From a virus, in IMG/VR virus record IMGVR_UViG_3300022602_000028: a DNA stretch of 64,000 bases, one strand, 5' to 3'. Positions 9,101 to 45,259 of this stretch are shown here, piece after piece. Made by a program: the position numbers and the translations under genes. Positions within the stretch are counted from its first letter, which is position 1. Each line of letters begins with the position of its first letter. The notes below the pieces were generated by a model. It was not told the DNA's origin, searched no databases, and saw only the letters and a program-made list of their open reading frames with translations.

Positions 9101-12100
9101 AACTGCTATTTCTATAAATTACATCATTGTCATACGCATCTATGAATTTAGCTGTACTTAAATTCCACCATAACATACCTACTTTAGATTTAGTCCAGGC
9201 TTGTTGACTGTCTGTCACTACGGTAAATGTGCCAGTCGAATCAGAATAAATTGCAGGATCATAAAATGTTTTAAATTTTATTTCTTCATCTGCAAGGCCT
9301 GCAATTTTCCCCTGAGCAACATCAATAATATCTAAGTATTGTATTAAAGTTCCTAATTTTTTATTATATAAGAATGCTTTTTTAATTTTGTTAGGATTAG
9401 GTTTGTCTACTTCGTAGTGTAATACATTCCAACTATAAGAATTTAAATTTTTAGAATAATCATAAATTTTTCCAGACTTAAATCCAGAATCTAAACTGTA
9501 AGGTGCACCTACTAATATATGATTTGCACCTACAGCAAATCCAAGTCCATATCCGTCTGTTGTTTGACTGCTAGTTTGTAATGTTTCGCTGTACACCCAC
9601 TTGTTTGCATATCTATCATAAACATCAATTCGTCCGCTATTAGTATGCTGTGCGCTGAACGCGGTAGATTTTTTATCAAAGGTAGTTGTTATCGTATCAA
9701 AGGTAGTCAATTGACTAGTGTCTTCGTCTTGGCTATATACCACAATAGTATTTTCGCCGTTCATAAAACTTAAATTAGTTCCAAAATATCCAGAAGATTT
9801 AGCTGAATGATTTGTTAGACTTTGATAATAATTAAATTGATTATTACTAGAATTAAATTTATAAATTGTAACACTACCTTGATCAATTTTAGTTACCGTA
9901 GTAATTATATCTCCAATTGCTAGATAATTACCAGAATCTGTCAAAGTTAATGCTACTCCAAAAAATACGTCAGATCCTGTAATTATCTGTGTAGGAGTAA
10001 TAGTAGGCGTGCCTTTATAAACATAAACAGATCCGTAAGAATTGTTTGCTAATCCAGATGCTACTAATACAGTATTATCTGCACTGATATTAAATTTAGT
10101 TGCATACGCAGATGTTCCGGTAGGACTTAAATAAACATTAATCGAATCTAATACCCAACTAGTTGTAGTAAATGATATAATTCCTGAAGGAATTGATGTT
10201 GGCGCAAGACTTAATTCTAATAATGTAGAACTTAATACGCTAACTACATACTGATTAGTAAATCCAACACCTGACACTGTCATTCCAGCACGTATACCAA
10301 TAGTAGAAGTCAGACTTAATGTTGTTCCGGTCGATCCTACTGGATTATAAGGCGAAGACGCATTTATTACTGTAGCATAATTAAATCTTCTTATAACTCC
10401 GACATGTCCCGCTTGTGTTGTATATCCTGGTGCAGAAATATACATGGAATTTGTTCCAAATTTAATACTATTTCCAAAATGTTCAGTGTTCTGTGGCTCT
10501 GGACTAACAATATGATCAACTAAACTAAAAATATTATTGCCGTCTTTTTGGTACAGAGATACAAGACCTTGTTCACTAAATGCACTAGCAGTACCTGATG
10601 TATCCAATGGCACATAAGTTATTAATTTCCATTTAGTTAAATCGCTGGCCGGTGCTATTCCGGCAGAAGAATTTGCAATTGCTTGATAAAAGATTGGTGT
10701 ATAATTAGTATAAGATACCCTTACAATATCTCCTATTGTATAACTAGAAGATATATTCCATACTCCTTTAAATCTTGTCGGCACGTTGCCGGCTAAAGGA
10801 GATCCAACTGCTAACCATGATGCATCATCGCTTATTGCCAACACTGTTGATAAATTGCGAGCAATGTTTAGTCCAGATAAAGCAAGAGGTAACGAAATAG
10901 TTTGGCGTTCAATCCATGGGCTATCCTGGCCTGCCTTATCCCATATACGAATTTCTCCAGTATTCATAGCTGTAACAGCTATTTTACCGTTACCACTTAT
11001 TACTATATTTTTACCATAGTTTAAATTATCTATCGGGAATGTATTTGTAATTTCTGTTTGCGAGTATATTGGATTATAACTTAAAGTGGCCCATTTGCCG
11101 TTTGAATAATTTTCTACCCATACTTGTTGGTTAGCTGATAAATCATTATCAATAACATCGTCTAAATTGTCAGTAGTTTGTATTTTTTGACTTAAAAATC
11201 CATAAACTATCAGTTGTGCAGATTGTGTAAAAGGATTACTAATAGTTTTAATTAACGGTGCCGATACAGAGAACGAATTTAAATTAACTGATGTAATTTG
11301 ATAAAATCCAGCAATTGAAGCAACTTGGCTAATACCAACATATTGTCCAACTGTTAATGCTACTATATTTTCTGTAGTAAATGTTAATACCGAATTACTA
11401 AAAGATACCGATTGAATTTTTAAATTTAAATTTGTAAATTTATATACATTCCAAGAATTATTATCAAATGAAACTTGTATGTAACATCCGGCGTTGAACG
11501 TAGTTATATCGTATAATAATCCAGTGTCAGGATCAATACCTGTTATTTCTGATAACGTGCCTAAACTTTTGAACACTTCAGAATTTCTTACAAATCCGGC
11601 ACTATTTAAAAACGGTATATAGTTAGTAGTTAGCGGCCAAGGTGCCGAAGCATAACCTAACGGTTTTAAATAAATGTCGTTGGGAGTTTGTCTTATAACA
11701 AAATCGTTTACTAATGTATAAGGAATTGAATTTACTAATTCAAACGCTTGTGGATTTGTAAAAAATGCTGATTGATTTAAAACAAATTCAATATTTTCAA
11801 ATGCCTTACTTGCGCCATACTGCCCTACACGTATTGCCCATTCTTCATAGAACGTTAAACTTTCTTGGTTGTCTGCACTAAGTACGTCAAATAATTTATT
11901 CAAGACATTTCTAGTACCTTTTTCTCTTATCATTCCTTGATAAAATTTATATTCACTTACATCGTCTTGTATAATTGTATCAAGATATTGACGTTTTTGG
12001 TATCCAATTAAATGTTGGGCTACTTGTTGTTGTTTAGAATCAAAATTATCGCTGTCAAGACTATAAAAATCTGTAAACTGTCCAGCTTTGTACGTCCAAT

Positions 12101-15100
12101 TTGGCAACAGTTGTGTGCTAGGTTTAGAGTCTAATTTAATCCAATCACTGTCGACAAAGGTTGCAGTCCCTGCTAAAAATTTGCTGGCAGTATAATAAAA
12201 TTCTTTATGCTTTACAATATCACCTAAATCATAATCAGTCCATTCTGACCATTCTGTAATTTTAGCTAAGTCTAAAATGAATCCAGGTATATCAAATCCG
12301 CCATACCAATCTATACTAACATATCCAGATACTTTAATTCTGTCTTGTTTATAACCTGTGGGAGGATTATATATTGTATCATTAAACATTGTAGTATTAT
12401 TCAACAATACTACATGCTCATGCTGTATTAAGTAAAATGTTGCTCCGTATATTCCATCAGCTGTTCGTGGGCTATAGCTTACTGCATTATCAGATCTGTA
12501 AGAATTTATAAAAATTGCTTCTAATGGCGTGCCATCTACTTTATAAATTTCATATCCGTTAAATTGATTTCTAATATCGTCTACTACACTCAACGGAGTG
12601 TTAAAAATTATCTTATCTGCCGCTGGGCTTAGACTTATTACAGAACTTCCTATAGAACTTAGCCCATCTATTTTTACAAAATTCTTTGATTGGAAGTTAA
12701 CATCTGGTAAAACATTACTAATAGCTTTATAATATTCTCCGTTATATCTTACAATATCATTATAGACAAATGATTTATTTGGCAACCAGTCGTCCCACTT
12801 ATCTTGTCCTGTACTCCAGTTTTGTGTAGTCCAGAATAAAAATTCTTTGGCGCTAGTTTCCCAATTGGTAACGGCATTTAAATTACTATTAAATTCGTCA
12901 AAGATAAATCCTTGATCTTTTAAATACTCTCCGTATCCTAAAAGAAAATCTACTACATCTTGTATTGTTGAAAATTCTGATCCGTAAGGAACTGTTATTG
13001 GTGCAGTTCTATCCCATGTTTTTCTAAATATTGCGGACTTGCCGCCGATAATAGGAACGCTACCTATAGCTGTAAAGTATTGTGGTTGGAAAACAGTTGT
13101 CGACAAATGAGATGTTCTAACTTGATAATATTGATTAATATATTTTACAATTTTACCTGCCACGTAGTTTTCATTTTCTGTCCATACCGTAAAAGCTTCA
13201 GTTATTCCACCAATAGTAACTGTTGCTCCAGATTGCAAATAAGGATAATACACAAAATAAGGCTGAGTTCTGTTATAACCTTTAACTTCAAATCCGTTTG
13301 TAAGTTTTGTTATAACTACACCACTGTAAGAAATTGATTTAATAGGACTAGATTTATTTAAAATAATGCTATAATCTTCTTGAGGAACAAATACGCTTCC
13401 TGTACTTAGAGGAGTCTTACTATCTAGAATTAAATTAAATTTTTCTTTGCTAGTGAACGCTCCTACACGATGACTAATCTGCGTTTGAATATTAGTTAAA
13501 TCATAAACATAGGCAGAATATAAAGTAGTAGTATCACTTAAAATATAATTTATAATATAATTTATAATACCAGAAGTTTGCACTCGAGTGTTGCTAGTTG
13601 TAACGCTAGGCAAGACTACATCTGTAGGACGAATTCTTAAACCCGTAGGCGAATAAATTAGCTGACCAGCTATATTTCTTACAATTCTCGATCTGTCCAA
13701 TAATACTCCAAATGTTTTTGCAGGAGTCAATAATAAACTAGTTAGTAATATACTAAAAGGATAATGACTACTTCTACGCCATGCAGATTCTACTGGGCCA
13801 ACATCTCCAAATATAAAACTTGAAGCTGTTTGATTTGTTATAGTACCACTTACTATACCAGCTTGAGATGGACTAATTAGATTTCCATCCTCATCAACTG
13901 GAATATGATTTACAAGATAAGATTTTTTATATTTAAAATTAACTGTGCTTGGAGATGTACCATCTCCTTTAATAATTCCGTTAGCAATGTCAGTCCACAT
14001 TACAAGATTATTGCTAGTATACGGACTTGGTCCGTATACTGAAGTCCACCAACTTGGCTCAATTGTAAATCCTAACATTTCCCAAGGACAAATATTTGGT
14101 CTATCAGTATCATAAAAATATTTGTACACTCCTCTCCAATAACCCGGAACATCTGTACCGGATGGAGAGCTTAATCCTCTATAATTATAAGTAAGAGGAT
14201 TGTTAGAATCATAAGAGGGATTTTTAGTGTAGTCAGTATCGACTAATAGTAACCATTTATAAAAATTAGGAGCTAAGACTTGATTAAATTCTGCTAAAGA
14301 ATAATCATTAGGTCTAGTATAACTTGGATAAATGTCAGCAATATCGTAAATATCAGTATTGTATGCAACTTTGATATTGTTAAAGATTCGTTTTTCTAAT
14401 TCTAAAATAACATCATCTCTGTAATCGCCATAAGCCAAAATCTGGCTTCCATCGTGTCCTTGGATTATTGTATTAGGCGTAATGAACGATGTGTCTAGAT
14501 ATATCTGAGGAGTAAATTTTGGATAAATTCCAAGTTTTGTCGGTGTTTCTGGAATAAAGCATCCGTCTGTACTTTCATATTCATAGATAGAAATAACATC
14601 TCCATTTGTCAACGCAAAAGTTATTGTAACAAACCCTTGTGTGTTAAACAAATAATCTCTACCATATATTAACTGCACATCATTTACATAAACCCCAACT
14701 GCATTGGGTGTTAAAGTATCTAAACTAAATGCGTTGTTTAATGGATAAATTTGTATTCTATAATCAATTACAGTAATTACTGTTTCCACACTGCTACCAT
14801 AGGGCGCCATATCACTAAAATAGTATGGTTGAGAATTTGTTTTATCAGAATTAATAATTTTTAAAATTTCGTCAACTTGTTTGCGAGGAGTATCAGAAGT
14901 GTTAAGTGATTCTGCAATTGATATAAATGTTTTTTTAAATTTAATATAATCATCTCTACTTTTTTCAATAGCTCTAATAACATTATTTGTTTGGTTAGTG
15001 ATATGATATACATTTAAACTTGCTGGAGCACTATGTTGTACAAACTTGGTACCATATTGTGTAATATTACCTAAATCTCTAATGTTAGTATAAGAAGAAT

Positions 15101-17438
15101 CTGGAATATGTTCAACAATAGAGTTAACATGGTCTAATACTTCGCCAAGTGTAAAGTCTGTTAGCTGATCGTTTAACGGATTATTTTGCAAGTTAACAGG
15201 GATTTCATAATATCCATTAGAATTAATTGGTTGAGATGCATACGCTTTAATTGTTAATACATCAGTTAAAGCTATAGGTGTATTCAGTTGTATTGTTTTA
15301 TAGAACGGACCTGTAACTATTGTATAAGAATTATTACTTAAGAAAATTCCGTTAACATATACTTTTATTTGTAGATCATTTAAGTTTGAAATATCATCAA
15401 ATATATCTATATTAAAATTATTTGTTAAATTAGAATTTTTATAAATTCTAATAGCCGCTTGAACTGTAGTTGAATTACAAATTTGCCAACCATTAAGATA
15501 CTCTACTTCTCCTGAATAAAGAGTATGACTTAAAAATCCAGTATTAATAGGAATAGTAACTAAAGTTATTTCATTTTTATATCTAAATGTATCTGAATTT
15601 AGATTAAAATTAAAAGAAATATCTCCAATATTTGAAATGTTTTTATAACTTAAAGCAAATCCTAAATACGGATCTGTTGCTCCGCTAGATGCAATTTTAT
15701 AAGAAAATAATTCAGTTCCGACAAAAGTCGACCCATCATAAGTTGATAAATTTCCAAAACTAATACCATTAGAATCTACTATATCAAACAACGGCGGCTG
15801 ATTAGTTTTAGTTTTAGTCTGCGTTTTAATCCAAGTTGTGCCATCGTACCAATACATTAATCCTTGATTTACTGATCCAGTTTTAATTAAAACTACTTGG
15901 TTTTCTAAAGGTTGTGCTAGTTCTACTAAATGAATTTGTTTGCTGTTAGTATTTAAATGTAACACATCCACAAATTTAACTTGATATATATTGTTTTTTA
16001 CGAGACGATCTGTATCTGCTGTAAACAATATCTTTTGGCCTTCGCTTAGTGAAACACCATCTATACTATATCCGTGACTGCCTTCGATTGTAGAAAATAC
16101 ATCTTTTGTAAAATTATCAATTAAATCAATATCGCCAATTGCAGTAGTACCAAAATTAAATAATTTTAAGTTAGGTTGAAATTCTATAATGGGGCGTACT
16201 GCTCTTAGAGTTTGATCAGTACTCGATACATGTCCGTTAAATGTGGCACTTGCATTAATTACATCTTTGTGAAACCATCGATTGTATCGGCTCCATGGAT
16301 TATAATCGACGCTTGCTCGATTAATAGTGATATAATCTTTTAATTGAGCAAACGCTGTTGTATCGCTAAACGCATTGCTATCAAATAAATCGCTATCAAA
16401 TAAAATAGTTTGTTCAATAGTATATACACTGGTAACTTCTAACACTTCTTTATTTGTTAGTGTTATAGCAGTGCCAACACCCTCAACATAATACTCCCCA
16501 GATGCATAGCTAGCCGGTGTCACATTGCCACCAAATGATACTTTCATACCATTACTAAGTTTAGTGCCGTCTGATAAAGTATATGATGCTTTTCCTAATA
16601 ATTCATTTTGAACATCAATATAAGTATCGTCTTCTATTGATAATATTTCAAACACGCCGCCTAAACTTAAATTGCGATCGCTTTGATAATATAAGATGCT
16701 AGGCGCATCTAGTGGAACTTGGAACACTATTGATCCAGATTGCACCGATTGACTAGTAACTCCAGTATTATATAAATCGGTGTTTACTAAAGATCGAGCT
16801 ACTCGGATACTAATTGGATCTCCTACACTATTAATATTAAATGTGTATGTTTGTCCTCTATATAACTTTATAGAAGGATTGGGTGTTAGCCCGTCAGGCG
16901 TGAACACTAATTGATTATTTGAAGCTTCTAATTTTAAATCAACAGTATAAGTGCTGTTGACATTTAGTTTATGTCCGTAAATTCTAATAGTCTCGGGTCC
17001 GTACGGTAACCAATAATAGTTTTGGAAATTAACAAATTTATCCCAATCAATATGTGGATCCCAACTATAAAATTCTTGCTTATTCAATCGACTATGGTTT
17101 GAAACATTGGCTTCAAACACATTTAATTGATTAATATAATCGATATAATCTTTAAAAAAGATATTATTGCCTAGTGGATCATTAATAGTGAAACTAGGTT
17201 CAAGTTGATAATTTTGTCTATCTTGACTAGCGGCTTGTAAAAAAATATCAGAACCGGTCGTTGCTTTAGCATTTTCTCTACCAACGTAGCCGTTAACTTT
17301 TTTAACAACACCAGGTTGTGTTAGCTGGTCGATGGTAGCTTGTAAAAATCTTTTATTAGCATCAGTTTTGTAAACGTTTGGTAATAAATCTGATGATAGA
17401 TTTTTTTTATCGCCGTATGGGTTGGTAAGATCAGCCAT
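3108..17438 (-). CDS. Giant baseplate wedge/scaffold protein (4776 aa; gp7-like position)
   Basis: Uninterrupted 14.3-kb ORF overlapping the gp6 stop. It contains W...Y..G.IV.Y repeats, I.I...G.GY...P.V.I..G.GA repeats, an FG-GAP-like propeller region (FG..L....D, LAVGSP) and (G)DG.T..F Ig-like repeats. It sits in the slot T4 gp7 occupies after gp6. Confidence 0.7.
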   Translation of the reverse strand: MADLTNPYGDKKNLSSDLLPNVYKTDANKRFLQATIDQLTQPGVVKKVNGYVGRENAKATTGSDIFLQAASQDRQNYQLEPSFTINDPLGNNIFFKDYIDYINQLNVFEANVSNHSRLNKQEFYSWDPHIDWDKFVNFQNYYWLPYGPETIRIYGHKLNVNSTYTVDLKLEASNNQLVFTPDGLTPNPSIKLYRGQTYTFNINSVGDPISIRVARSLVNTDLYNTGVTSQSVQSGSIVFQVPLDAPSILYYQSDRNLSLGGVFEILSIEDDTYIDVQNELLGKASYTLSDGTKLSNGMKVSFGGNVTPASYASGEYYVEGVGTAITLTNKEVLEVTSVYTIEQTILFDSDLFDSNAFSDTTAFAQLKDYITINRASVDYNPWSRYNRWFHKDVINASATFNGHVSSTDQTLRAVRPIIEFQPNLKLFNFGTTAIGDIDLIDNFTKDVFSTIEGSHGYSIDGVSLSEGQKILFTADTDRLVKNNIYQVKFVDVLHLNTNSKQIHLVELAQPLENQVVLIKTGSVNQGLMYWYDGTTWIKTQTKTKTNQPPLFDIVDSNGISFGNLSTYDGSTFVGTELFSYKIASSGATDPYLGFALSYKNISNIGDISFNFNLNSDTFRYKNEITLVTIPINTGFLSHTLYSGEVEYLNGWQICNSTTVQAAIRIYKNSNLTNNFNIDIFDDISNLNDLQIKVYVNGIFLSNNSYTIVTGPFYKTIQLNTPIALTDVLTIKAYASQPINSNGYYEIPVNLQNNPLNDQLTDFTLGEVLDHVNSIVEHIPDSSYTNIRDLGNITQYGTKFVQHSAPASLNVYHITNQTNNVIRAIEKSRDDYIKFKKTFISIAESLNTSDTPRKQVDEILKIINSDKTNSQPYYFSDMAPYGSSVETVITVIDYRIQIYPLNNAFSLDTLTPNAVGVYVNDVQLIYGRDYLFNTQGFVTITFALTNGDVISIYEYESTDGCFIPETPTKLGIYPKFTPQIYLDTSFITPNTIIQGHDGSQILAYGDYRDDVILELEKRIFNNIKVAYNTDIYDIADIYPSYTRPNDYSLAEFNQVLAPNFYKWLLLVDTDYTKNPSYDSNNPLTYNYRGLSSPSGTDVPGYWRGVYKYFYDTDRPNICPWEMLGFTIEPSWWTSVYGPSPYTSNNLVMWTDIANGIIKGDGTSPSTVNFKYKKSYLVNHIPVDEDGNLISPSQAGIVSGTITNQTASSFIFGDVGPVESAWRRSSHYPFSILLTSLLLTPAKTFGVLLDRSRIVRNIAGQLIYSPTGLRIRPTDVVLPSVTTSNTRVQTSGIINYIINYILSDTTTLYSAYVYDLTNIQTQISHRVGAFTSKEKFNLILDSKTPLSTGSVFVPQEDYSIILNKSSPIKSISYSGVVITKLTNGFEVKGYNRTQPYFVYYPYLQSGATVTIGGITEAFTVWTENENYVAGKIVKYINQYYQVRTSHLSTTVFQPQYFTAIGSVPIIGGKSAIFRKTWDRTAPITVPYGSEFSTIQDVVDFLLGYGEYLKDQGFIFDEFNSNLNAVTNWETSAKEFLFWTTQNWSTGQDKWDDWLPNKSFVYNDIVRYNGEYYKAISNVLPDVNFQSKNFVKIDGLSSIGSSVISLSPAADKIIFNTPLSVVDDIRNQFNGYEIYKVDGTPLEAIFINSYRSDNAVSYSPRTADGIYGATFYLIQHEHVVLLNNTTMFNDTIYNPPTGYKQDRIKVSGYVSIDWYGGFDIPGFILDLAKITEWSEWTDYDLGDIVKHKEFYYTASKFLAGTATFVDSDWIKLDSKPSTQLLPNWTYKAGQFTDFYSLDSDNFDSKQQQVAQHLIGYQKRQYLDTIIQDDVSEYKFYQGMIREKGTRNVLNKLFDVLSADNQESLTFYEEWAIRVGQYGASKAFENIEFVLNQSAFFTNPQAFELVNSIPYTLVNDFVIRQTPNDIYLKPLGYASAPWPLTTNYIPFLNSAGFVRNSEVFKSLGTLSEITGIDPDTGLLYDITTFNAGCYIQVSFDNNSWNVYKFTNLNLKIQSVSFSNSVLTFTTENIVALTVGQYVGISQVASIAGFYQITSVNLNSFSVSAPLIKTISNPFTQSAQLIVYGFLSQKIQTTDNLDDVIDNDLSANQQVWVENYSNGKWATLSYNPIYSQTEITNTFPIDNLNYGKNIVISGNGKIAVTAMNTGEIRIWDKAGQDSPWIERQTISLPLALSGLNIARNLSTVLAISDDASWLAVGSPLAGNVPTRFKGVWNISSSYTIGDIVRVSYTNYTPIFYQAIANSSAGIAPASDLTKWKLITYVPLDTSGTASAFSEQGLVSLYQKDGNNIFSLVDHIVSPEPQNTEHFGNSIKFGTNSMYISAPGYTTQAGHVGVIRRFNYATVINASSPYNPVGSTGTTLSLTSTIGIRAGMTVSGVGFTNQYVVSVLSSTLLELSLAPTSIPSGIISFTTTSWVLDSINVYLSPTGTSAYATKFNISADNTVLVASGLANNSYGSVYVYKGTPTITPTQIITGSDVFFGVALTLTDSGNYLAIGDIITTVTKIDQGSVTIYKFNSSNNQFNYYQSLTNHSAKSSGYFGTNLSFMNGENTIVVYSQDEDTSQLTTFDTITTTFDKKSTAFSAQHTNSGRIDVYDRYANKWVYSETLQTSSQTTDGYGLGFAVGANHILVGAPYSLDSGFKSGKIYDYSKNLNSYSWNVLHYEVDKPNPNKIKKAFLYNKKLGTLIQYLDIIDVAQGKIAGLADEEIKFKTFYDPAIYSDSTGTFTVVTDSQQAWTKSKVGMLWWNLSTAKFIDAYDNDVIYRNSSWNTLATGASIDIYEWVESSVLPAVWDQQSGTVAGLAANISGTSLYGNNVYSKRSRYDTLSQTTRYTYYFWVKNKTTIPNVSGRNISASDVSTLISNPRGYNYPYLALTGTNSFSLINVSNNLNNSDVVLSVEYWLIDKTDQNIHQQFKLISNDPITTLPKLIEQKWIDSLCGKDSVGRDVPDSTLPVKLKYGVENRPRQSMFVNRFEALKEFVDHANIVLSANQITKNKNISNLQSYETLPSVITGLFDLIKTSEVEIPLINTGGYVRPVLGTPVIADGKIIGITIINAGRGYLYAPYITITGSGVGAVVRSTINSAGQITGASVLNSGEGYTNNTTASVRDFSVLVESDSQAEGFWSIYSYNPVDNTWARVRTQSYDTRNFWAYADWYATGFNQFSAIDFAVDNYYGLNSINTTVNQVVKIRNANSGGWVLLEKYATSASTDWTQSYKIVGLQNGTIQLKSTLYESIDTNIGYDGSIYDNVVYDNNPSVELRIILQTLKNNIFIDDLKQNYLDLFFTTVRYALSEQLYLDWIFKTSFVKSTHNLGVLDQPVTYKPDNLSNFQDYISEVVPYRSTVREYVSAFSGTDYEHTLVTDFDIPPIYEDGMETIINAYVSNGKIQADDANIQTYPWKNWLDNVGFSITELKIVDGGTGYISEPVVTITSDSGSGATARAFFANGVVNRIIILTPGSGYLSAPTVTLSGGLSVSGKQATAIAIIGNSVVRSNLIKIKFDRTTYSYYITQLDVSQTFTGRSGILQFNLTWAPDIKVGNSSVTVDGVLILRDSYTLAVKTTTTNGYTQYSGLITFLTAPATGSIIVVNYIKDESLLNANDRIKYYYKSSNGSLGTDFAQLMTGIDYGGVIVNGLGFDVATGWGTLPYYSDKWDSADPTFNDYIVTVSANTHSFTLPYTPVAGVDINVYHSVLNTDAYTSDGVTTSYPFNLYDVLPVVSANIAHQSVSIQTNYYPPAGAYIPSTTLTVASTVGIVPGMTVIGAGFVADSITLVPLQQVVSVINSTTLKLNIVPNTQPNGTLTFTKNVAKSTILALSSVAGIQIGDAVSTSAVSAFGQDTVVTAINSVTNEVTLNQITFVTILNSSSIVFSRSLSPIFSNYNAILSAPLTAGTNIIIKSYFDPVRIDDPNYGTMLQTNSNAVMSTPVMNGITSVITIPNTVIVTDGDRFILRQSTSDGSVKPLDQDYDTALSGGDMGYTTATGLAPEDIIVDGDDLISPTTSPAPEEVVPGQIVDTLAIKVFDQPNSGSANIKVDKYIADGNTVLFDITQPINNSRALIVKNNDSIVTYNTDYTVDYKNKQIKFNVAPIAGNIVSIFSFGFNGSNILDIDSFVGDGSTTEFLTKAPWTTYETSLVYVDGVASVIELFKTDSTYAASNRTGIRFGIAPAVGSVINYVIVSGTQQTFSIAKTEKIPTDGVNRVYNLFYPVGNVLPAESNMIVRVDQTILSSPINQYYTIANNELSYTVDEDRAIPYSITIDNILVYVSGVKLNLGTDYTINLGGITVTITKQNYNLYQGQILSISIIQNNGYAYLPNTQQISFSNVYNSSNVVEVISFYNHDILDVQRTAFNITTDISYIQNSVTYFNYTGLGAGILPLDRTVLNDSYVWITHNNTLLTPSLDYKISDDKKYVWLAQTPALNDVFSLMTFSSNVLTPGISYMQFKDMLNRVHFKRLSKNKQTQLANDLHYNDVVIQVIDASNFDKPNTALQKPGVVEIYGERIEFYQIDGNTLSQLRRGTQGTGTPQVHPIGTPVQDIGPSETLPYSESSTITTIISDGTNIVSLPFVPEKSNEIWTYSTGFTSTIPTGYGQSDQLEVFIAGYNDAIDWMPNVEYTVGIIIKVASYNYRCITSHTSSTNFLADSANWQFFIGNLRLKKKPYKVHNETIAPYSPAGDVQLDAEFAVDGVNSSLRLTNLIPAGTQITVVRRKGISWDSSLNIQYDNNNIATFLKATPGIWYSDKVGLTTSTTFTGSFDNSSAGFDDNTDQW

Positions 17439-31149: not shown

Positions 31150-31575
31150 ATGTCCTGGTACTATCAAAATGAACAAGTAGAAATTCTTCCTGAAGATTGT
31201 GTTGGGTTTGTTTATCTTATAACAAATACAATCTCAGGGCGTATGTACATAGGCAAAAAACTAGCAAAATTCTCCAAAACTACTTACAAGACAGTAAAAC
31301 TCAAGAACGGCACTAAGAAAAAAAAGAAAATCCGTAGCAAAATTGACAGTGATTGGCGGGACTATTACGGTAGTTCTCCCGAATTAACCAAGGATGTTAC
31401 GCAGTTAGGTCAAGAAAACTTTCGCAGAGAAATATTATTTTACTGTAAATCCAAGGCAGAATGCAGTTATATAGAAGCTCGTGAACAATTCTCACGCAGA
31501 GTTCTTGAATCAAATGACTATTATAATGGTCATATTCAAGTGCGTGTACATGGTTCACATATACTGAAATCTTAA
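31150..31575 (+). CDS. GIY-YIG nuclease (T4 endonuclease II/DenA-like), stand-alone catalytic domain
   Basis: GFVYLITN...YIGKK, YYGSS, catalytic E in CSYIEAREQF, YYN; Lys-rich insert; no NUMOD/HTH C-terminal domain. Confidence 0.85.
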   Translation: MSWYYQNEQVEILPEDCVGFVYLITNTISGRMYIGKKLAKFSKTTYKTVKLKNGTKKKKKIRSKIDSDWRDYYGSSPELTKDVTQLGQENFRREILFYCKSKAECSYIEAREQFSRRVLESNDYYNGHIQVRVHGSHILKS

Positions 31576-31599
31576 TAAATCAGGCTCATAAAACACCAA

Positions 31600-32042
31600 A
31601 TAAGCCCGCACAGGCGTTGATAGTGTGCCCCGAATCCGTTCTGATGTGTGACGGCAAGGTATTTCTGCTTGGTGTCAGAGTTGTAGTTCACTATCCTTTA
31701 CAGGACGATGATGGAATATGCCTATAATCCGTTTGAACTATAAGAAGAATTTTCAAGGCTAAAAGAGAGGTTGTAGCCTCACGGTTCATGTGCGTTTAGC
31801 ATTGTGCATGAGCCCGCCGTCATATAAAGACTCAGCTCGTGGTACCGGATGACCGCCACTGTAACTGCTGAAATGCTAGGGTGATATTGTTCGACTCGGA
31901 TAATGTTAGTCATTTTGCCCGCCAGGGCAAAGTGTGACTGAACGATCTGGATAATATTTAAAGTGCTTCGCACTAAATTATATCATTAACTTAACAGTTA
32001 GTTCGAGCTGATAAGCGAAGAACAGATGAACGTAGTTCATCT
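31600..32042 (+). ncRNA. Candidate large structured non-coding RNA (about 450 nt), class not recognised
   Basis: No credible ORF. About 44% GC (hand count, 31621-31980) versus about 22% in the 27181-27240 spacer. At least 12 helices tile the region, including long-range 31645-31655/31816-31826 (11 bp), 31681-31690/31734-31743, 31783-31790/31807-31814, 31883-31892/31949-31958 and 31911-31920/31925-31934. Many G-U pairs orient it on the + strand. Confidence 0.7.
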
Positions 32043-32053
32043 ACTAATACCGA

Positions 32054-32059
32054 TAAATA
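32054..32059 (+). promoter_or_regulatory. Putative late promoter core (TAAATA), probably leaderless transcript
   Basis: GATAAATAT, 5 nt before ATG 32065; no SD in between. Confidence 0.55.
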
Positions 32060-32064
32060 TCTAC

Positions 32065-33468
32065 ATGAAAGTTACAGAAATTATCTTAAGAGAAAATCAC
32101 GACTTAAAAGAAGGCGAAATAGGACTTGGTCGAAAATTATATCGTTTAGATCGTGGATTCACTGCGGCTGAAACTAAGTTTATAAATGACTATACTACTA
32201 GATATGCCTATGAAGCCACACTGCATGAAACACGATATCCCGGTGTAAAATTTGACAGTTTTGCTGACTGGCTAAAAAAATTACGCCAAGCTGATCCTAA
32301 ACTTGACCAAGTTGAAATGTTAAATGATCCTACTATTATTCAACAAATGATTAAGGTAGCTGAGAAAAAAACCAAGGAAGCTATAGACAACGCTATAAAG
32401 GCGGCTAAGAAAGGCGAAATGGATACGAAACCTCTTAAGGCATTTGACGGTTCAAGTATTATTCGAAAAATTTACTCATTAGGATATCCTGCACTAGTGA
32501 TGGCCGCTATCGAGGAACCTACTAGACAATATCTAACACATAGAGCTTCCTTAAACTATTGGTTATCTAGAGGAGTTATATCTTATAATGCAAGTAAACA
32601 AAATGCCGATCCTAGTTATAAAGATAAGCCAGAAGATTTGAAAAGATGGGCTACACTATCAAACGAACAATTTTATCATACATACATAACTACATTGACT
32701 GCTAATCTTATGACACTGTTACCGGGGTTAACTGTTACAGCCGCAGACAAACTGACTGCTGGCAGTATCTTATGGGAGTGGATTGTAAAATTGCTTCCAG
32801 GTTTAGGAAAAATTGTAGGCAATAAGGGACTAAAATGGTTAACTACTCCTGGCAAAGGCGCTCTCAAGTTACTTTTTAGTACTTTACAAATTACTTTATT
32901 ATGGGACATAAATGAAGCTCCCGGTTTAGATAGTGATCAAAAAGGAATTGCTAATTTGTCCGATCTAGTATGGGTAAAGGTAAATGAATATTCAAATAAC
33001 AATACAGAATGGGGTTGGTATGAAGGCCCTGACTTGGCTAGACAATACATGTGGACGGATACTTTATCTATAGGGGATCGTGCAGTAAACAATGTGTCTA
33101 GTGCAATAAAATCCGCCTGGGAAAGTTCTACAATTCAAACAATTATTAAGAAAATTGAAGAGTTACCAATTGCAGAACCAGAGCTAGGTAAACTTGACAA
33201 AAAAGTTAACACACCTCCTGCACCTACTCCAGAGCCTGGTCAGCCAGAAGGCCCAGGAAAAGGTGATGGCAAAACTATACCTCCCGGAGAACCCGGTAAT
33301 CCTCCTGAACAGCCCGGCAGCCCAGCAAAACCCAAACCTAGAGAAATTGGCTACATTAATGATGCAGGATGGGAAATTGTGAGGAAATCCGGTGATAGGA
33401 CAATCTGGAAACATCCTAATATACCACAAGTAGCTATTCAAGAACCTGGTGAACCTGAACCTAGTTAA
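32065..33468 (+). CDS. Hypothetical protein (467 aa), candidate capsid-internal/ejected protein
   Basis: Probable start is ATG 32065 (MKVTEIILRE...), not the track start 32026, which lies inside the RNA hairpins. It has an N-terminal L-x-E motif, an amphipathic middle and a Pro/Gly/Glu-rich C-terminus. Confidence 0.7.
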   Translation: MKVTEIILRENHDLKEGEIGLGRKLYRLDRGFTAAETKFINDYTTRYAYEATLHETRYPGVKFDSFADWLKKLRQADPKLDQVEMLNDPTIIQQMIKVAEKKTKEAIDNAIKAAKKGEMDTKPLKAFDGSSIIRKIYSLGYPALVMAAIEEPTRQYLTHRASLNYWLSRGVISYNASKQNADPSYKDKPEDLKRWATLSNEQFYHTYITTLTANLMTLLPGLTVTAADKLTAGSILWEWIVKLLPGLGKIVGNKGLKWLTTPGKGALKLLFSTLQITLLWDINEAPGLDSDQKGIANLSDLVWVKVNEYSNNNTEWGWYEGPDLARQYMWTDTLSIGDRAVNNVSSAIKSAWESSTIQTIIKKIEELPIAEPELGKLDKKVNTPPAPTPEPGQPEGPGKGDGKTIPPGEPGNPPEQPGSPAKPKPREIGYINDAGWEIVRKSGDRTIWKHPNIPQVAIQEPGEPEPS

Positions 33469-43639: not shown

Positions 43640-43698
43640 AAACTTACATGGGGTAAGTTTTATGCGGAAATCCAACCGCGTACGGCCTAGAACGCCGT
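43640..43698 (+). promoter_or_regulatory. Structured 5' leader (three hairpins) between late promoter 43626-43631 and gene 43721
   Basis: AAACTTAC/GTAAGTTT (43640-47/43653-60), GCGG/CCGC (43664-67/43676-79), ACGGC/GCCGT (43682-86/43694-98). Confidence 0.55.
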
Positions 43699-43720
43699 TA
43701 TTCTTTAAGGAGAAATTAAA

Positions 43721-45259
43721 ATGGGACGTCCTTTATCATCAAAGTACTTTGGTCATAGAAACACAGGTACAGACGGCAATTTTGGTGCCGCAAACACAGC
43801 AGGCGATGCAGGCCTTGGCGGTCAATCAGTAAACGGTATTTCAGTAGGAACAGCAGGTTCTTATAATGCTACAAACGCTGACGCATTAACATTAACATTT
43901 CCAGCACCATCATTAAGTGGCGAAGGTGCAGTTAGTGCAACAGGTACACCAAATTTTAAAACATTAACTGCTACAATTAGCGGTACACAAACTCGTGCTT
44001 ACCCAGTTGCCGCTGGTGCTTTAAGCATTGGTTCTAGTTCAGCTACTTCGACTTATACAGCTACAGTTACCAGTGCCGCATTAGCTTCAGTTGCTTATGC
44101 AAGTGCTACTACAATTAGTTTCAACACAACTGGTACAGCAATGATTTCTGGTACCAGCGTTGTAATCAGCGGTGCAAGTATTACAGGTACTATGACTATT
44201 GGTGGCGTAGCTATTGCCGCAGGCCAAACATATTATGTAGGCGCACCAACAACTACAACAGCCGCAACATTGTATGCAACTTACTCTAATGCTGTTAATG
44301 CAACAAGCCCATTGACAATTAGCAACGGTACAACAACTGGTGCTACATTTACATTTGGTACTACATACGGTACAGTTACAGCAGTAACAGTAGTATCAGG
44401 TGGTTCAATTGCCAAAGGTGCAGTAACAGCATACGCTGTAGCAACTACACCATCGACTGCTGACAGTTCAGGTTCTGGTCTACAAATTACTCCAGCAACA
44501 TTTGGTCTAGTAAGTTCAACTATTACACAAGCTGGTGATGGTTATGTAAACACTTCATTAACAAGTTATACAATTACAGCAACAACAGTTACATCAAACT
44601 TAGTTACATTAAGTTCAGTTGATGAAATTGTTCCTGGTATGCAATTTACAGCCGCAAGTACAGTTGGTGGTATTACAGGTTCAACAGTTTATTATGTTGC
44701 TACAGTAAGCGTTGCTAACAGTCAAATTACACTTGCTGACACATACGCTCACGCTATTGCTGGTACAAACATTATCAGCTTGACAACAACTACTGCTCAA
44801 TCAGTTGCAACAACTATTGCTAGTAATTTGATTGTATTAACAAGTTCAGGAGCCGCAACAGCTACAGCAACTTTGACAACAGCAGAAACAACTGGTGCTA
44901 CTGGTAGCGCAACGACCGGACGTTATTCAGCCATTCTAACAACAGCATGGGTAGCAGGCGATTCTGGCGCAACTGAAGATGCAAATATTATTAAACAGTC
45001 AGCAACACGTCGTTACAAAGTTGAAACAACAAATGGTACAAGCGGTGTTTGCACACTAGTAACTGCTACTCCAACATCAGGTCAGATGACTATTCAAGCA
45101 ACTGATTCAGCTGGCGGTACATACTATGTAAGCAAATTAACTGCTCACAAAGCAACATTGGTGCCTATCACTGGTACTCAGTTTGCCAGCGGTGCAACAG
45201 CTGGTTGGAATTTTTCAACAGCAGTAGTAAACGTTTCAGTTGTAATCGATAACGGTTAA
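43721..45259 (+). CDS. Virion decoration/head-fibre-like protein (512 aa, Thr/Ala/Gly/Ser-rich)
   Basis: Strong AAGGAG SD, capsid-like codon bias, own late promoter; small N-terminal (MGRPLSSKYFG) and C-terminal (IIKQSATRRYKV) domains flank a beta-rich insert. Confidence 0.6.
   Translation: MGRPLSSKYFGHRNTGTDGNFGAANTAGDAGLGGQSVNGISVGTAGSYNATNADALTLTFPAPSLSGEGAVSATGTPNFKTLTATISGTQTRAYPVAAGALSIGSSSATSTYTATVTSAALASVAYASATTISFNTTGTAMISGTSVVISGASITGTMTIGGVAIAAGQTYYVGAPTTTTAATLYATYSNAVNATSPLTISNGTTTGATFTFGTTYGTVTAVTVVSGGSIAKGAVTAYAVATTPSTADSSGSGLQITPATFGLVSSTITQAGDGYVNTSLTSYTITATTVTSNLVTLSSVDEIVPGMQFTAASTVGGITGSTVYYVATVSVANSQITLADTYAHAIAGTNIISLTTTTAQSVATTIASNLIVLTSSGAATATATLTTAETTGATGSATTGRYSAILTTAWVAGDSGATEDANIIKQSATRRYKVETTNGTSGVCTLVTATPTSGQMTIQATDSAGGTYYVSKLTAHKATLVPITGTQFASGATAGWNFSTAVVNVSVVIDNG

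What the first reader, a model, noticed from the sequence alone, without database searches (positions are those of the whole stretch)
31600..32042. Unrecognised ~450-nt multi-domain structured RNA in the largest non-coding gap of the window
Seen: this gap has about 44% GC and can be tiled almost end to end with helices. These are GCACA/TGTGC (31608-12/31624-28); an 11-bp long-range helix TGTGTGACGGC/GCCGTCATATA (31645-55/31816-26) enclosing a multibranch domain (31681-90/31734-43, 31694-97/31702-05, 31710-15/31728-33, 31767-71/31776-80, 31783-90/31807-14); a nested TCAGC-GTGG-CGG(ATGA)CCG-CCAC-GCTGA domain (31832-71); GATATTGTTC/GGATAATATT (31883-92/31949-58) enclosing a 10-bp hairpin (31911-34); and terminal hairpins. 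TTCTGAT/GTCAGAG (31639-45/31674-80) would cross the long helix to form a pseudoknot, competing for T31645. Frequent G-U pairs work only on the + strand, which argues for RNA rather than DNA structure. Established: phages encode large ornate RNAs of unknown function (GOLLD, ROOL, HEARO classes). Inference: this is a member of such a class or a new one. I could not match it to RNase P, tmRNA, SRP or group I/II intron cores.
Basis: partly seen in the sequence, partly recalled or inferred. Interest (0 to 1): 0.88.

Follow-up and report, generated by a model that had tools for sequence, protein, structure and literature searches.

The report
Extended Polynucleobacter-1 twin-box phage RNA
The largest gene-free gap of this uncultured T4-like phage encodes a real, roughly 450-base, multiply knotted non-coding RNA whose front part is the catalogued but unexplained Polynucleobacter-1 motif and whose undescribed rear part carries the same 7-letter word twice, for a reader that is still unknown.

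Summary
The gap is a real + strand structured RNA, 31594-32042. Its first 141 nt hit Rfam RF01718 (Polynucleobacter-1, 77.9 bits). The 2010 supplementary alignment also drew an optional 'tail' that reaches about 31879. The rest (31880-32042) is in no Rfam family.

In more than 170 distinct viral-contig homologues the 5' and 3' parts always occur together. For 81 modelled pairs, 95.7% of cells are paired, with 345 compensatory cells against 89 in shuffles. G-U pairs outnumber A-C 831 to 103, so the RNA is read from the + strand. No reading frame is conserved.

Its 11-bp long-range helix, its pseudoknot, the 31883-92/31949-58 helix and the CGG/CCG hairpin do not. Four other pseudoknots are supported instead.

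Two 7-nt boxes (31898-904 and 31949-55) flank hairpin P9. They are identical in 171 of 174 elements, across at least 39 mirrored changes, and have no complement in cis.

The RNA always follows a small GIY-YIG gene. Downstream genes vary. Cultured phages with distant GIY-YIG homologues lack the RNA.

Function is unknown. My best guess is a trans-acting scaffold whose twin boxes are read by a bivalent partner. This scan has found the same family on other DNA at least eight times.

The parts
31150..31575 (+). Small GIY-YIG gene (141 aa) directly upstream. It is probably co-transcribed with the RNA.
   Evidence: Pfam PF19835 SegE_GIY-YIG, E 7.6e-33, covering the whole domain. phrog_447, E 3e-37. 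The same family sits upstream of the RNA in 57 of about 60 loci found through the RNA alone.
31594..32042 (+). The whole structured RNA (449 nt).
   Evidence: Conservation and covariation run from PK0 to P12. No reading frame is conserved.
31603..31743 (+). 5' domain, equal to Rfam RF01718 Polynucleobacter-1. Helices: P1 31608-12/31624-28; P2 31636-40/31650-54; P3 31663-67/31676-80; P4 31685-90/31734-39; P4a 31691/31707 plus 31694-96/31703-05; P4b 31710-15/31728-33.
   Evidence: cmscan 77.9 bits, model positions 1-141 of 141. Pair counts.
31594..31674 (+). PK0: the leader 31594-99 (CACCAA) pairs with the P3 loop 31669-74 (UUGGUG).
   Evidence: The sequence changes between clades but stays complementary: ACGG/CCGU and ACAG/CUGU in other clades (read from the alignment and the flanks printed). 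Column statistics are blurred by alignment shifts, so support is moderate.
31604..31615 (+). PK1: 31604-06 (GCC) pairs with the P1 loop 31613-15 (GGC).
   Evidence: 31604/31615 reads G-C 90 and A-U 22, 97% paired.
31767..31780 (+). P5 hairpin, 31767-71/31776-80.
   Evidence: Pair types G-C, C-G, A-U and U-A at 31768/31777. Already drawn in the 2010 file.
31783..31814 (+). P6 hairpin, 31783-93/31804-14 (11 bp). Its loop, 31794-803, supplies one strand of PK2.
   Evidence: Up to six pair types per position.
31797..31878 (+). PK2: P6 loop 31797-802 (UAGCAU) pairs with 31873-78 (AUGCUA).
   Evidence: G-C 88 with A-U 25, G-C 101 with A-U 11, C-G 101 with U-A 11; 94-98% paired. Marked tentative ('?') in the 2010 file.
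31819..31853 (+). P7: 31819-23 (GUCAU) pairs with 31849-53 (AUGAC) inside the P8 loop, so it is a pseudoknot with P8.
   Evidence: 98-100% standard pairs over 115 sequences. 31821/31851 reads U-A 73 and C-G 42; 31822/31850 reads G-C 77, A-U 29 and G-U 9.
31832..31871 (+). P8a 31832-36/31867-71 and P8b 31839-43/31855-59, around the invariant GGUACCGGA..ACCGCC block.
   Evidence: 31833/31870 reads G-C 50, C-G 46, U-A 10 and A-U 6.
31898..31904 (+). Twin box R1 (GGAUAAU), preceded by ACUC.
   Evidence: Identical to R2 in 171 of 174 distinct elements. R1-R2 is the only strong covariation partner of these columns.
31911..31934 (+). P9 hairpin (10 bp) between the boxes.
   Evidence: Covarying stems UUUGCCC/GGGCAAA, UUAGCCC/GGGCUAA and UUCGCCC/GGGCGAA.
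31949..31955 (+). Twin box R2 (GGAUAAU), preceded by AUCU.
31962..31974 (+). P10, a small variable hairpin (31962-66/31970-74).
   Evidence: Weak: 70-93% paired in a poorly aligned stretch.
32003..32019 (+). P11 with the conserved GAGC-loop-GCGA motif (inner pairs 32007-08/32015-16).
   Evidence: G-C 30 with A-U 5, and C-G 31 with U-A 4.
32024..32042 (+). P12, the terminal 8-bp hairpin and the 3' end of the conserved element.
   Evidence: Seven of eight pairs show changes on both sides.
32052..32067 (+). T4-type late-promoter-like GATAAATA (32052-59) and the probable true start ATG 32065 of the next gene. The ATG at 32026 lies inside P12.
   Evidence: Homologues keep ATGAAAGTT as the start. 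A TATAAATA-like word lies within 20 nt after P12 in 44 of 95 loci, and only 8 scattered matches lie in the 200 nt upstream of the RNA across 115 loci.

Best explanation
The gap encodes a compact + strand non-coding RNA of about 449 nt (31594-32042) with at least four pseudoknots. It is the full-length form of the Polynucleobacter-1 RNA family.

Shown:
- The fold is real and conserved.
- The 5' and 3' halves are one unit.
- It is not coding.
- It is not a leader of the downstream gene.

Inferred from anatomy:
- It is transcribed together with, or right behind, the small GIY-YIG gene. No promoter of its own was found.
- It ends at hairpin P12, just before the late promoter of the next gene.

Most likely mechanism (inference, about one chance in three). 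The knotted body is a rigid scaffold. It holds two identical 7-nt boxes on either side of hairpin P9 so that one external reader can engage both at once. The RNA would then act in trans during infection as a bivalent clamp, decoy or sponge, and not as a cis regulator or a guide for the neighbouring nuclease.
For: Family and extent:
- RF01718 at 31603-31743, 77.9 bits.
- The 3' part is conserved at 70-80% identity in almost every locus that was found through the 5' motif.
- All 88 new loci found through a 3' motif carry a 5' domain wherever upstream sequence exists.

Structure:
- 81 pairs, 95.7% of cells paired; 55 pairs changed on both sides.
- 345 compensatory cells against 88.7 +/- 8.7 in shuffles and 33-52 with slid partners.
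- The same helices hold on 115 non-redundant sequences.

Strand: G-U 831 against A-C 103.

Non-coding: distances between anchors show no 3-periodicity in any segment.

Not a leader of the downstream gene:
- Downstream genes belong to many families and are often on the opposite strand.
- A late-promoter-like word sits between P12 and the next + strand gene.

Twin boxes:
- Identical in 171 of 174 elements. Two further elements have G in R1 and A in R2 at position 1; the third is a spurious pattern match.
- On a tree built from the rest of the RNA, the box state changes at least 39 times, and every change is mirrored in both boxes.
- Their only strong covariation partner is each other.
- No complement of the box in cis from -650 to +400. 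No enrichment of the complement in the 64-kb window.
- A distant lineage, including the Polynucleobacter chromosome, has AGCGAAA in both boxes.

Not tied to the nuclease's specificity:
- No GIY-YIG column tracks the box above background.
- GIY-YIG homologues at 32-49% identity in cultured phages have no such RNA.
Against: - No transcript data.
- No reader was found, so the trans mechanism rests on exclusion.
- Identity of the boxes could instead come from short gene conversion in a highly recombinogenic T4-like phage, or from direct box-to-box contact.
- The tight linkage to the GIY-YIG gene is not explained. It is the immediate neighbour in 53 loci and one gene away in 4. All 80 loci found through the protein either carry the RNA or are truncated.
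- Neither a sigma-70-type nor a late-type promoter was found in front of the RNA. A plain 3'-UTR role therefore stays possible.
- Two other identity relations hint at alternative conformations rather than one rigid fold: 31826 with 31929, and the GUGAC words.
Confidence: 0.5

Rival explanations
1. It is a cis-acting 3' UTR of the GIY-YIG message. The folded block protects the mRNA from 3' exonucleases or times its translation or decay, and the RNA has no life of its own.
For: The RNA starts 18 nt after the stop codon, on the same strand. No own promoter was found. The gene and the RNA are almost always adjacent.
Against: - 449 nt with four pseudoknots, many invariant unpaired bases and twin boxes is far more than end protection needs.
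- In 4 loci another gene lies between the GIY-YIG gene and the RNA.
- GIY-YIG homologues in cultured phages do without it.
Confidence: 0.15
2. It is the RNA subunit (guide or scaffold) of the minimal GIY-YIG nuclease, by analogy with HEARO/omega RNA and IscB. The twin boxes would be specificity elements for two half-sites.
For: The 141-aa protein is essentially a bare catalytic domain with no DNA-binding domain. The linkage is strict on both sides within this clade. The box words vary between phages.
Against: - Homologues at 32-49% identity in about 500 phage records occur without such an RNA in the five loci inspected.
- No protein column covaries with the box beyond background.
- No matching or complementary site lies nearby.
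- The family is a single-copy, widely conserved gene in cyanomyoviruses rather than a mobile element.
Confidence: 0.08
3. The two boxes recognise each other directly, for instance as a short parallel-stranded stretch of like-with-like pairs clamped by P9. Identity would then be an internal structural rule with no external reader.
For: - The boxes behave statistically like a helix. Intermediates are rare (2 of 174, both G opposite A) and changes are many and mirrored.
- Aligned in parallel, every position of the two units puts purine with purine or pyrimidine with pyrimidine: A/A, C/U, U/C, C/U, the seven identical positions, then G/A.
- No third partner was found.
Against: No natural RNA is known to me with a 7-position parallel homoduplex (from memory). 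Pair geometries would be uneven. Nothing here tests three-dimensional structure.
Confidence: 0.08
4. Identity is kept by a process that needs homology. Candidates are repeated short gene conversion between the two DNA repeats, a template jump, or excision between the boxes that removes the P9 segment at the RNA or DNA level.
For: T4-like phages recombine intensely (established knowledge). The window encodes gp46/gp47-like recombination nuclease subunits next door. The repeats share further words (GUGAC, xAC/xAU) beyond the box.
Against: - Fixed differences directly abut the box on both sides (ACUC against AUCU; G against A), so conversion tracts would have to be exactly 7 nt.
- No locus with a single box and no P9 was seen among about 220 hits, about 174 distinct.
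- Spacing between boxes varies from 47 to 76 nt.
Confidence: 0.1
5. It is a DNA-level element (replication origin, packaging or recombination site), and the apparent RNA folds are incidental.
For: Direct repeats and hairpins lie in the largest gap, next to recombination genes.
Against: Compensatory changes keep pairs while the sequence changes. G-U outnumbers A-C eight to one, which only makes sense for a + strand transcript. Long-range and loop-to-strand pairings (PK2, P7) have no DNA rationale.
Confidence: 0.03

Closest known systems
Polynucleobacter-1 RNA motif (Rfam RF01718; Weinberg et al. 2010, Genome Biol 11:R31, PMC2864571)
   Same: The first 141 nt match the model end to end at 77.9 bits. 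The 2010 supplementary alignment also draws P5, P6, P8a/b and a tentative tail pseudoknot, which is PK2 here. The paper notes the position downstream of one gene family and a freshwater/estuary origin.
   Different: - The Rfam model stops at 31743.
- The paper says the 3' half 'is not always detected'. Here it is present in every untruncated locus.
- Absent from the published structure line: PK0, PK1, P7 (the 2010 file draws a CGG/CCG hairpin in its place), the twin-box module R1-P9-R2, and P10-P12. These lay in unaligned flanks.
- The paper rated it 'y' for cis-regulatory, although its Stockholm file and Rfam type it as 'Gene; sRNA'. The gene context here argues against a 5' leader.
- The paper found no purified phage with it. 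That is still true of deposited phage genomes, but more than 170 viral contigs carry it.
GOLLD, ROOL and OLE ornate large RNAs (Weinberg et al. 2009/2010; cryo-EM in PMC12286853)
   Same: A large, highly conserved, multi-domain RNA of unknown biochemical function. It is phage-borne, as GOLLD and ROOL often are, and many unpaired bases are invariant.
   Different: No Rfam match to any of them. It is smaller (about 450 nt). Nothing here tests self-assembly, the hallmark found by cryo-EM. Those RNAs are not reported to carry twin identical boxes (as far as I know, from memory).
HEARO / omega RNA of IscB and other nuclease-associated guide RNAs (from memory; HEARO is listed in the same 2010 study)
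   Same: A large structured RNA encoded next to a small nuclease gene, on the same strand.
   Different: GIY-YIG rather than HNH/RuvC. No terminal guide segment. The protein family exists widely without the RNA. No target-like match was found.
IS110 bridge RNA (from memory)
   Same: One RNA with two recognition loops that must share a short identical core.
   Different: No recombinase and no transposon ends. The boxes are 7 nt and fully identical, not flanked by differing guides. No matching DNA was found.
manA RNA (RF01745), a motif of marine T4-like cyanophages
   Same: The hairpin plus GUGACUGAA word of the P9-R2 module aligns weakly to the manA 5' part. Both occur in T4-like phages of aquatic bacteria.
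   Different: 15.4 bits against a gathering score of 55.2, E 0.17. This is most likely chance or a shared small module.

Membership tests
Polynucleobacter-1 RNA (RF01718) | Score at or above the curated gathering score with full model coverage. | tested here: met
   77.9 bits against 37, model positions 1-141 of 141, E 8e-15. Five homologues score 81-121 bits.
Polynucleobacter-1 RNA (RF01718) | P1, P2 and P3 hairpins, then a multistem junction P4/P4a/P4b with the conserved UCACUAUCC...GGACGA core. | tested here: met
   All helices are kept with covariation. The core is present at 31688-31708.
Polynucleobacter-1 RNA (RF01718) | Optional 3' 'tail' (P5, P6, P8, tail pseudoknot) as in the 2010 Stockholm file. 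| tested here: met
   P5, P6, P8a/b and PK2 are all present and covarying. The file's inner CGG/CCG hairpin is replaced by P7.
Polynucleobacter-1 RNA (RF01718) | Located downstream of a GOS11034-family gene. | not testable with these tools
   Here the upstream gene is PF19835/phrog_447. I could not check whether GOS11034 is the same family, though the constancy of the neighbour makes it likely.
GOLLD / ROOL / HEARO / OLE / raiA | Match to the family's covariance model. | tested here: not met
   No hit, even at E up to 10, on the gap or at E up to 1 on six homologues.
Group I or group II intron (with homing endonuclease) | Intron core model match and flanking exons of one interrupted gene. | tested here: not met
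   No Rfam intron hit. Upstream and downstream genes differ between loci, and the downstream gene is often on the other strand.
Cis-regulatory 5' leader / riboswitch | Constant position upstream of a functionally coherent set of genes on the same strand, within the same transcript. | tested here: not met
   The downstream neighbours fall into more than ten families and are frequently convergent. A late-promoter-like word lies between the RNA and the next + strand gene.
Nuclease guide RNA (omega RNA-like) | The protein family and the RNA co-occur throughout the family, and a variable segment matches a target. | tested here: not met
   Protein homologues in cultured phages lack the RNA. No match or complement of the variable boxes was found nearby. 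No protein-box covariation.
Protein-coding small ORF | A conserved open frame with indels in multiples of three. | tested here: not met
   Anchor-to-anchor distances fall in all three residue classes in every segment. The 64-aa minus-strand ORF 31779-31973 is therefore incidental.

The most novel reading that the evidence does not exclude
The twin boxes are a programmable two-handed specificity element. The knotted scaffold presents the same 7-nt word twice so that the RNA grips two copies of one short sequence in a trans partner, which could be phage or host RNA or DNA, or a nucleic-acid-bearing defence factor. The word is re-set in both hands whenever the partner changes. That would be a new kind of bivalent phage RNA effector, distinct from guides, sponges and riboswitches described so far.
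Probability: 0.1. Interest if true: 0.85.

Novelty: new variant of a known kind. Interest (0 to 1): 0.6.

Why it matters
Polynucleobacter-1 has sat in Rfam since 2010 as a 141-nt orphan 'sRNA'. This window and more than 170 relatives show that the real unit is a phage RNA about three times longer, with at least four pseudoknots. That places it among the few large ornate RNAs whose chemistry is unknown.

Its twin boxes follow a rule of identity instead of complementarity, kept through dozens of changes. Ordinary RNA structure does not explain that rule, and it gives a sharp, testable handle: change one box, or both, and look for what reads them.

It also corrects the family's presumed role as a 5' leader, and it gives a better model for annotating uncultured freshwater T4-like phages.

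Tried and rejected
Searches that found nothing or could not run:
- Deposited phage genomes: blastn with the window RNA and with a canonical relative found nothing.
- Five cultured phages with GIY-YIG homologues have no Rfam hit and no motif words downstream.

Looking for a partner of the boxes:
- Partner inside the RNA: covariation partners, links to other variable helices, and an own-versus-other complement test by region were all negative.
- A G/U-rich stretch at P4's 3' side can wobble-pair with most boxes. It is invariant and already paired, so I read it as compositional.
- A third copy of the box: an apparent cluster about 2.5 kb upstream is a conserved Lys-Asp-Asn coding word.
- Complement in the 64-kb window: 11 hits against 9.5 expected.
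- GIY-YIG as the co-evolving reader: no column rises above background.

Other readings tested:
- 'Fast-evolving boxes', as earlier notes say: not supported. Box sites diverge at 0.3-0.6 times the RNA average, and 108 close pairs all share the same box.
- Translational hop or a coding repeat: box spacing ranges from 47 to 76 nt with no periodicity.
- Own promoter or intrinsic terminator: none found.
- tRNA or tmRNA: none in the window.
- Literature: no paper links GIY-YIG with a structured phage RNA.

Full report
**What is there.** The window is the late/structural region of a T4-like phage. It encodes:
- a portal protein, baseplate wedge and hub proteins, tail fibres and a 4776-aa virion protein;
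- a gp55-like late sigma factor;
- gp47/gp46-like SbcCD nuclease subunits.

No whole genome is held for it. Coding is dense. The stretch between the stop of a 141-aa GIY-YIG gene (31575) and the next gene is the largest gap. Its GC is about 43% against 35-38% nearby.

**Rfam.** A gathering-threshold scan places RF01718, Polynucleobacter-1, at 31603-31743 on the + strand. The score is 77.9 bits against a cut-off of 37, and the model is fully covered. A permissive scan of the gap adds only noise: CRISPR-DR57 at 17.7 bits and manA at 15.4 bits. The rest matches nothing in Rfam 15.

**Energy.** The + strand folds to -136 kcal/mol (z = -3.12). The - strand gives z = -2.76. This is suggestive only.

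**Relatives.**
- Close homologues of the downstream protein gave only near-identical contigs.
- A 5' core pattern found about 60 true homologues among viral contigs. In nearly all of them the sequence after the Rfam motif is also conserved at 70-80% identity.
- A pattern from the 3' part (GGUACCGGA..ACCGCC) found 88 further loci. Each has a 5' domain wherever upstream sequence exists, often a variant that my first pattern missed.
- Starting from the GIY-YIG protein instead gave 80 loci at 73-93% identity. Every untruncated one carries the RNA. One of them, L385, has a 5' domain so divergent that Rfam does not see it.
- The unit is therefore about 450 nt, and the family is wider than RF01718.

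**Structure.** I aligned 36 sequences (A1) and then 115 non-redundant sequences. Mutual information and pair counts support:
- P1-P4b, the Rfam structure;
- P5, and an 11-bp P6;
- P8a/P8b, P9, P11 and P12;
- four crossing interactions:
  - PK0: leader 31594-99 with the P3 loop 31669-74;
  - PK1: 31604-06 with the P1 loop;
  - PK2: P6 loop 31797-802 with 31873-78;
  - P7: 31819-23 with 31849-53, inside the P8 loop.

The tool count on A1 gives 81 pairs with 95.7% of cells paired, and 55 pairs changed on both sides. There are 345 compensatory cells against 88.7 +/- 8.7 in shuffles and 33-52 with partners slid by 1-3 columns. G-U cells outnumber A-C cells 831 to 103, so the transcript is the + strand. 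Distances between conserved anchors fall in all three residue classes in every segment, so no frame is conserved on either strand. The 64-aa minus-strand ORF is incidental.

Eight of the twelve listed elements coincide with supported helices. Four do not hold.
- The 11-bp helix 31645-55/31816-26 is incompatible with P2 and P7, and both of those covary. It can form, largely through wobble pairs, only in the window's own 15-member clade. I cannot exclude it as an alternative conformer there.
- The proposed pseudoknot 31639-45/31674-80 fails in most sequences.
- The helix 31883-92/31949-58 also fails in most sequences.
- The CGG/CCG hairpin, also drawn with question marks in 2010, is displaced by P7.

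**What was already published.** Weinberg et al. 2010 describe the motif in a few lines. It was found in freshwater/estuary samples and in one Polynucleobacter genome. They write that the '3' half is not always detected', that it lies mostly downstream of one gene family, and that no purified phage carries it. Their raw Stockholm file goes further than Rfam. It draws P5, P6, P8a/b, an inner CGG/CCG hairpin and a tentative 'tail' pseudoknot. Everything beyond is left as unaligned flank. In window coordinates the published picture therefore reaches about 31879. New here are PK0, PK1, P7, the module 31880-31960, and P10-P12.

**Twin boxes.**
- Two 7-nt words lie 51 nt apart on either side of P9: 31898-904 after ACUC, and 31949-55 after AUCU.
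- Across 115 sequences the variable positions of the two words agree perfectly: G/G 61 and A/A 54; A/A 68 and G/G 47; U/U 86, A/A 24 and G/G 5. Each box column has the twin column as its only strong partner.
- Over all loci, 171 of 174 distinct elements are identical. Two have G in R1 and A in R2 at position 1. One is a spurious pattern match.
- Nine words occur.
- In a distant lineage that includes the Polynucleobacter chromosome, both boxes read AGCGAAA (flank text). So even the positions that are constant in my set can change together.
- On a maximum-likelihood tree of the rest of the RNA, the box state changes at least 39 times, always in both copies. Recombination could inflate this number.
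- The boxes are not unusually fast. Their per-site divergence is 0.3-0.6 of the RNA average, and 108 pairs of RNAs at 93% identity or more all share the box.
- I found no complementary partner within the RNA or within -650 to +400. I found no third copy, no excess of the complement in the window, and no GIY-YIG residue that tracks the word.
- Spacing between the boxes ranges from 47 to 76 nt.

**Context.**
- The upstream neighbour is the same ~142-aa GIY-YIG family (PF19835, phrog_447) in 57 of about 60 RNA-selected loci. It is adjacent in 53 and one gene away in 4.
- Genes further upstream and downstream vary. Downstream genes are often convergent.
- After P12, loci with a + strand gene show a T4-type late-promoter-like word and then ATGAAAG. 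In the window these are GATAAATA at 32052-59 and ATG at 32065. The listed ATG at 32026 lies inside P12 and is probably not the start.
- Neither a late-type nor a sigma-70-type promoter, nor an intrinsic terminator, marks the RNA itself. It is therefore probably made with the GIY-YIG transcript.
- The protein family is widespread and single-copy in about 500 deposited phages, mostly cyanomyoviruses, at under 60% identity. The five loci inspected have no such RNA.

**Reading.**
- Settled: a real + strand, non-coding, multiply knotted RNA of about 449 nt. It is the full-length form of Polynucleobacter-1 and is confined so far to uncultured T4-like phages.
- Likely: it is not a leader of the downstream gene, and it is not a co-evolving guide of the nuclease.
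- Open: what it does. I commit, at about one chance in three, to a trans-acting scaffold whose two identical boxes are engaged together by one bivalent reader. The rivals are a 3'-UTR role, an RNP with the nuclease, direct box-to-box contact, and homology-dependent conversion or processing. They are listed with their tests.

**Earlier notes of this scan.** Earlier notes reached the same anatomy on at least eight other windows. I arrived at it independently before reading them, and I borrow only the name 'twin box'. I differ from them on two points. The 2010 supplement already covers more than the first third. The boxes are not fast-evolving.

Noticed in passing
window 43642-43723 (+): A second catalogued RNA: Rfam RF02980 freshwater-2, 73.7 bits against 49.9. 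It ends in AAGGAG just before the ATG at 43721 of a 512-aa gene with no family hit. It looks like a 5' leader.
   Followed up: no
window 32024-32067: The ORF finder's start at 32026 lies inside hairpin P12. Homologues point to ATG 32065, preceded by a late-promoter-like GATAAATA (32052-59) and no Shine-Dalgarno sequence. The message is possibly near-leaderless and late.
   Followed up: partly
window 31824-31829 and 31927-31932: A second identity relation. The word xAAG after P7 matches the xAAG of the P9 3' strand (31826 with 31929: A/A 64, U/U 20, G/G 7). Both are therefore complementary to the P9 5' strand. This may be an alternative pairing, a folding intermediate or a triple.
   Followed up: partly
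window 31693-31694 with 31705-31706 (P4a): A non-standard covariation. 31694/31706 reads U-C 84 against C-U 29. The core therefore reads AUCC...GGAC in some sequences and ACCC...GGAU in others, as if an A-C mismatch and a U-A pair swap places.
   Followed up: partly
window 31916-32047: The P9-R2 module aligns weakly to the 5' part of the manA RNA of marine cyanophages (15.4 bits, E 0.17) and shares GUGACUGAA. This is below any threshold and may be chance.
   Followed up: no
window 31881-85, 31934-38, 31830-31: The word GUGAC (or ...GAC) recurs before each box unit and after P7's 5' strand. It can wobble-pair with every variant of 31819-23. The 3' domain looks built from repeated units.
   Followed up: partly
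L385:1930-2360 and L374: L385 has an intact 3' domain but a 5' domain that Rfam does not recognise. L385 and L374 are the only elements whose boxes differ (G in R1, A in R2 at position 1).
   Followed up: partly
NC_009379.1:2130672-2131206 (text of the 2010 alignment): The Polynucleobacter chromosomal copy and two GOS scaffolds carry AGCGAAA in both boxes, and the same word a third time in the P8 loop (..AUAGCGAAACCGCC..). I could not fetch the locus to study it.
   Followed up: partly
window 3108-17438 (-) and 56335-63999 (+): A 4776-aa virion structural protein (phrog_10938) and an open-ended ORF of at least 2555 aa. These are unusually large genes, even for a T4-like phage.
   Followed up: no
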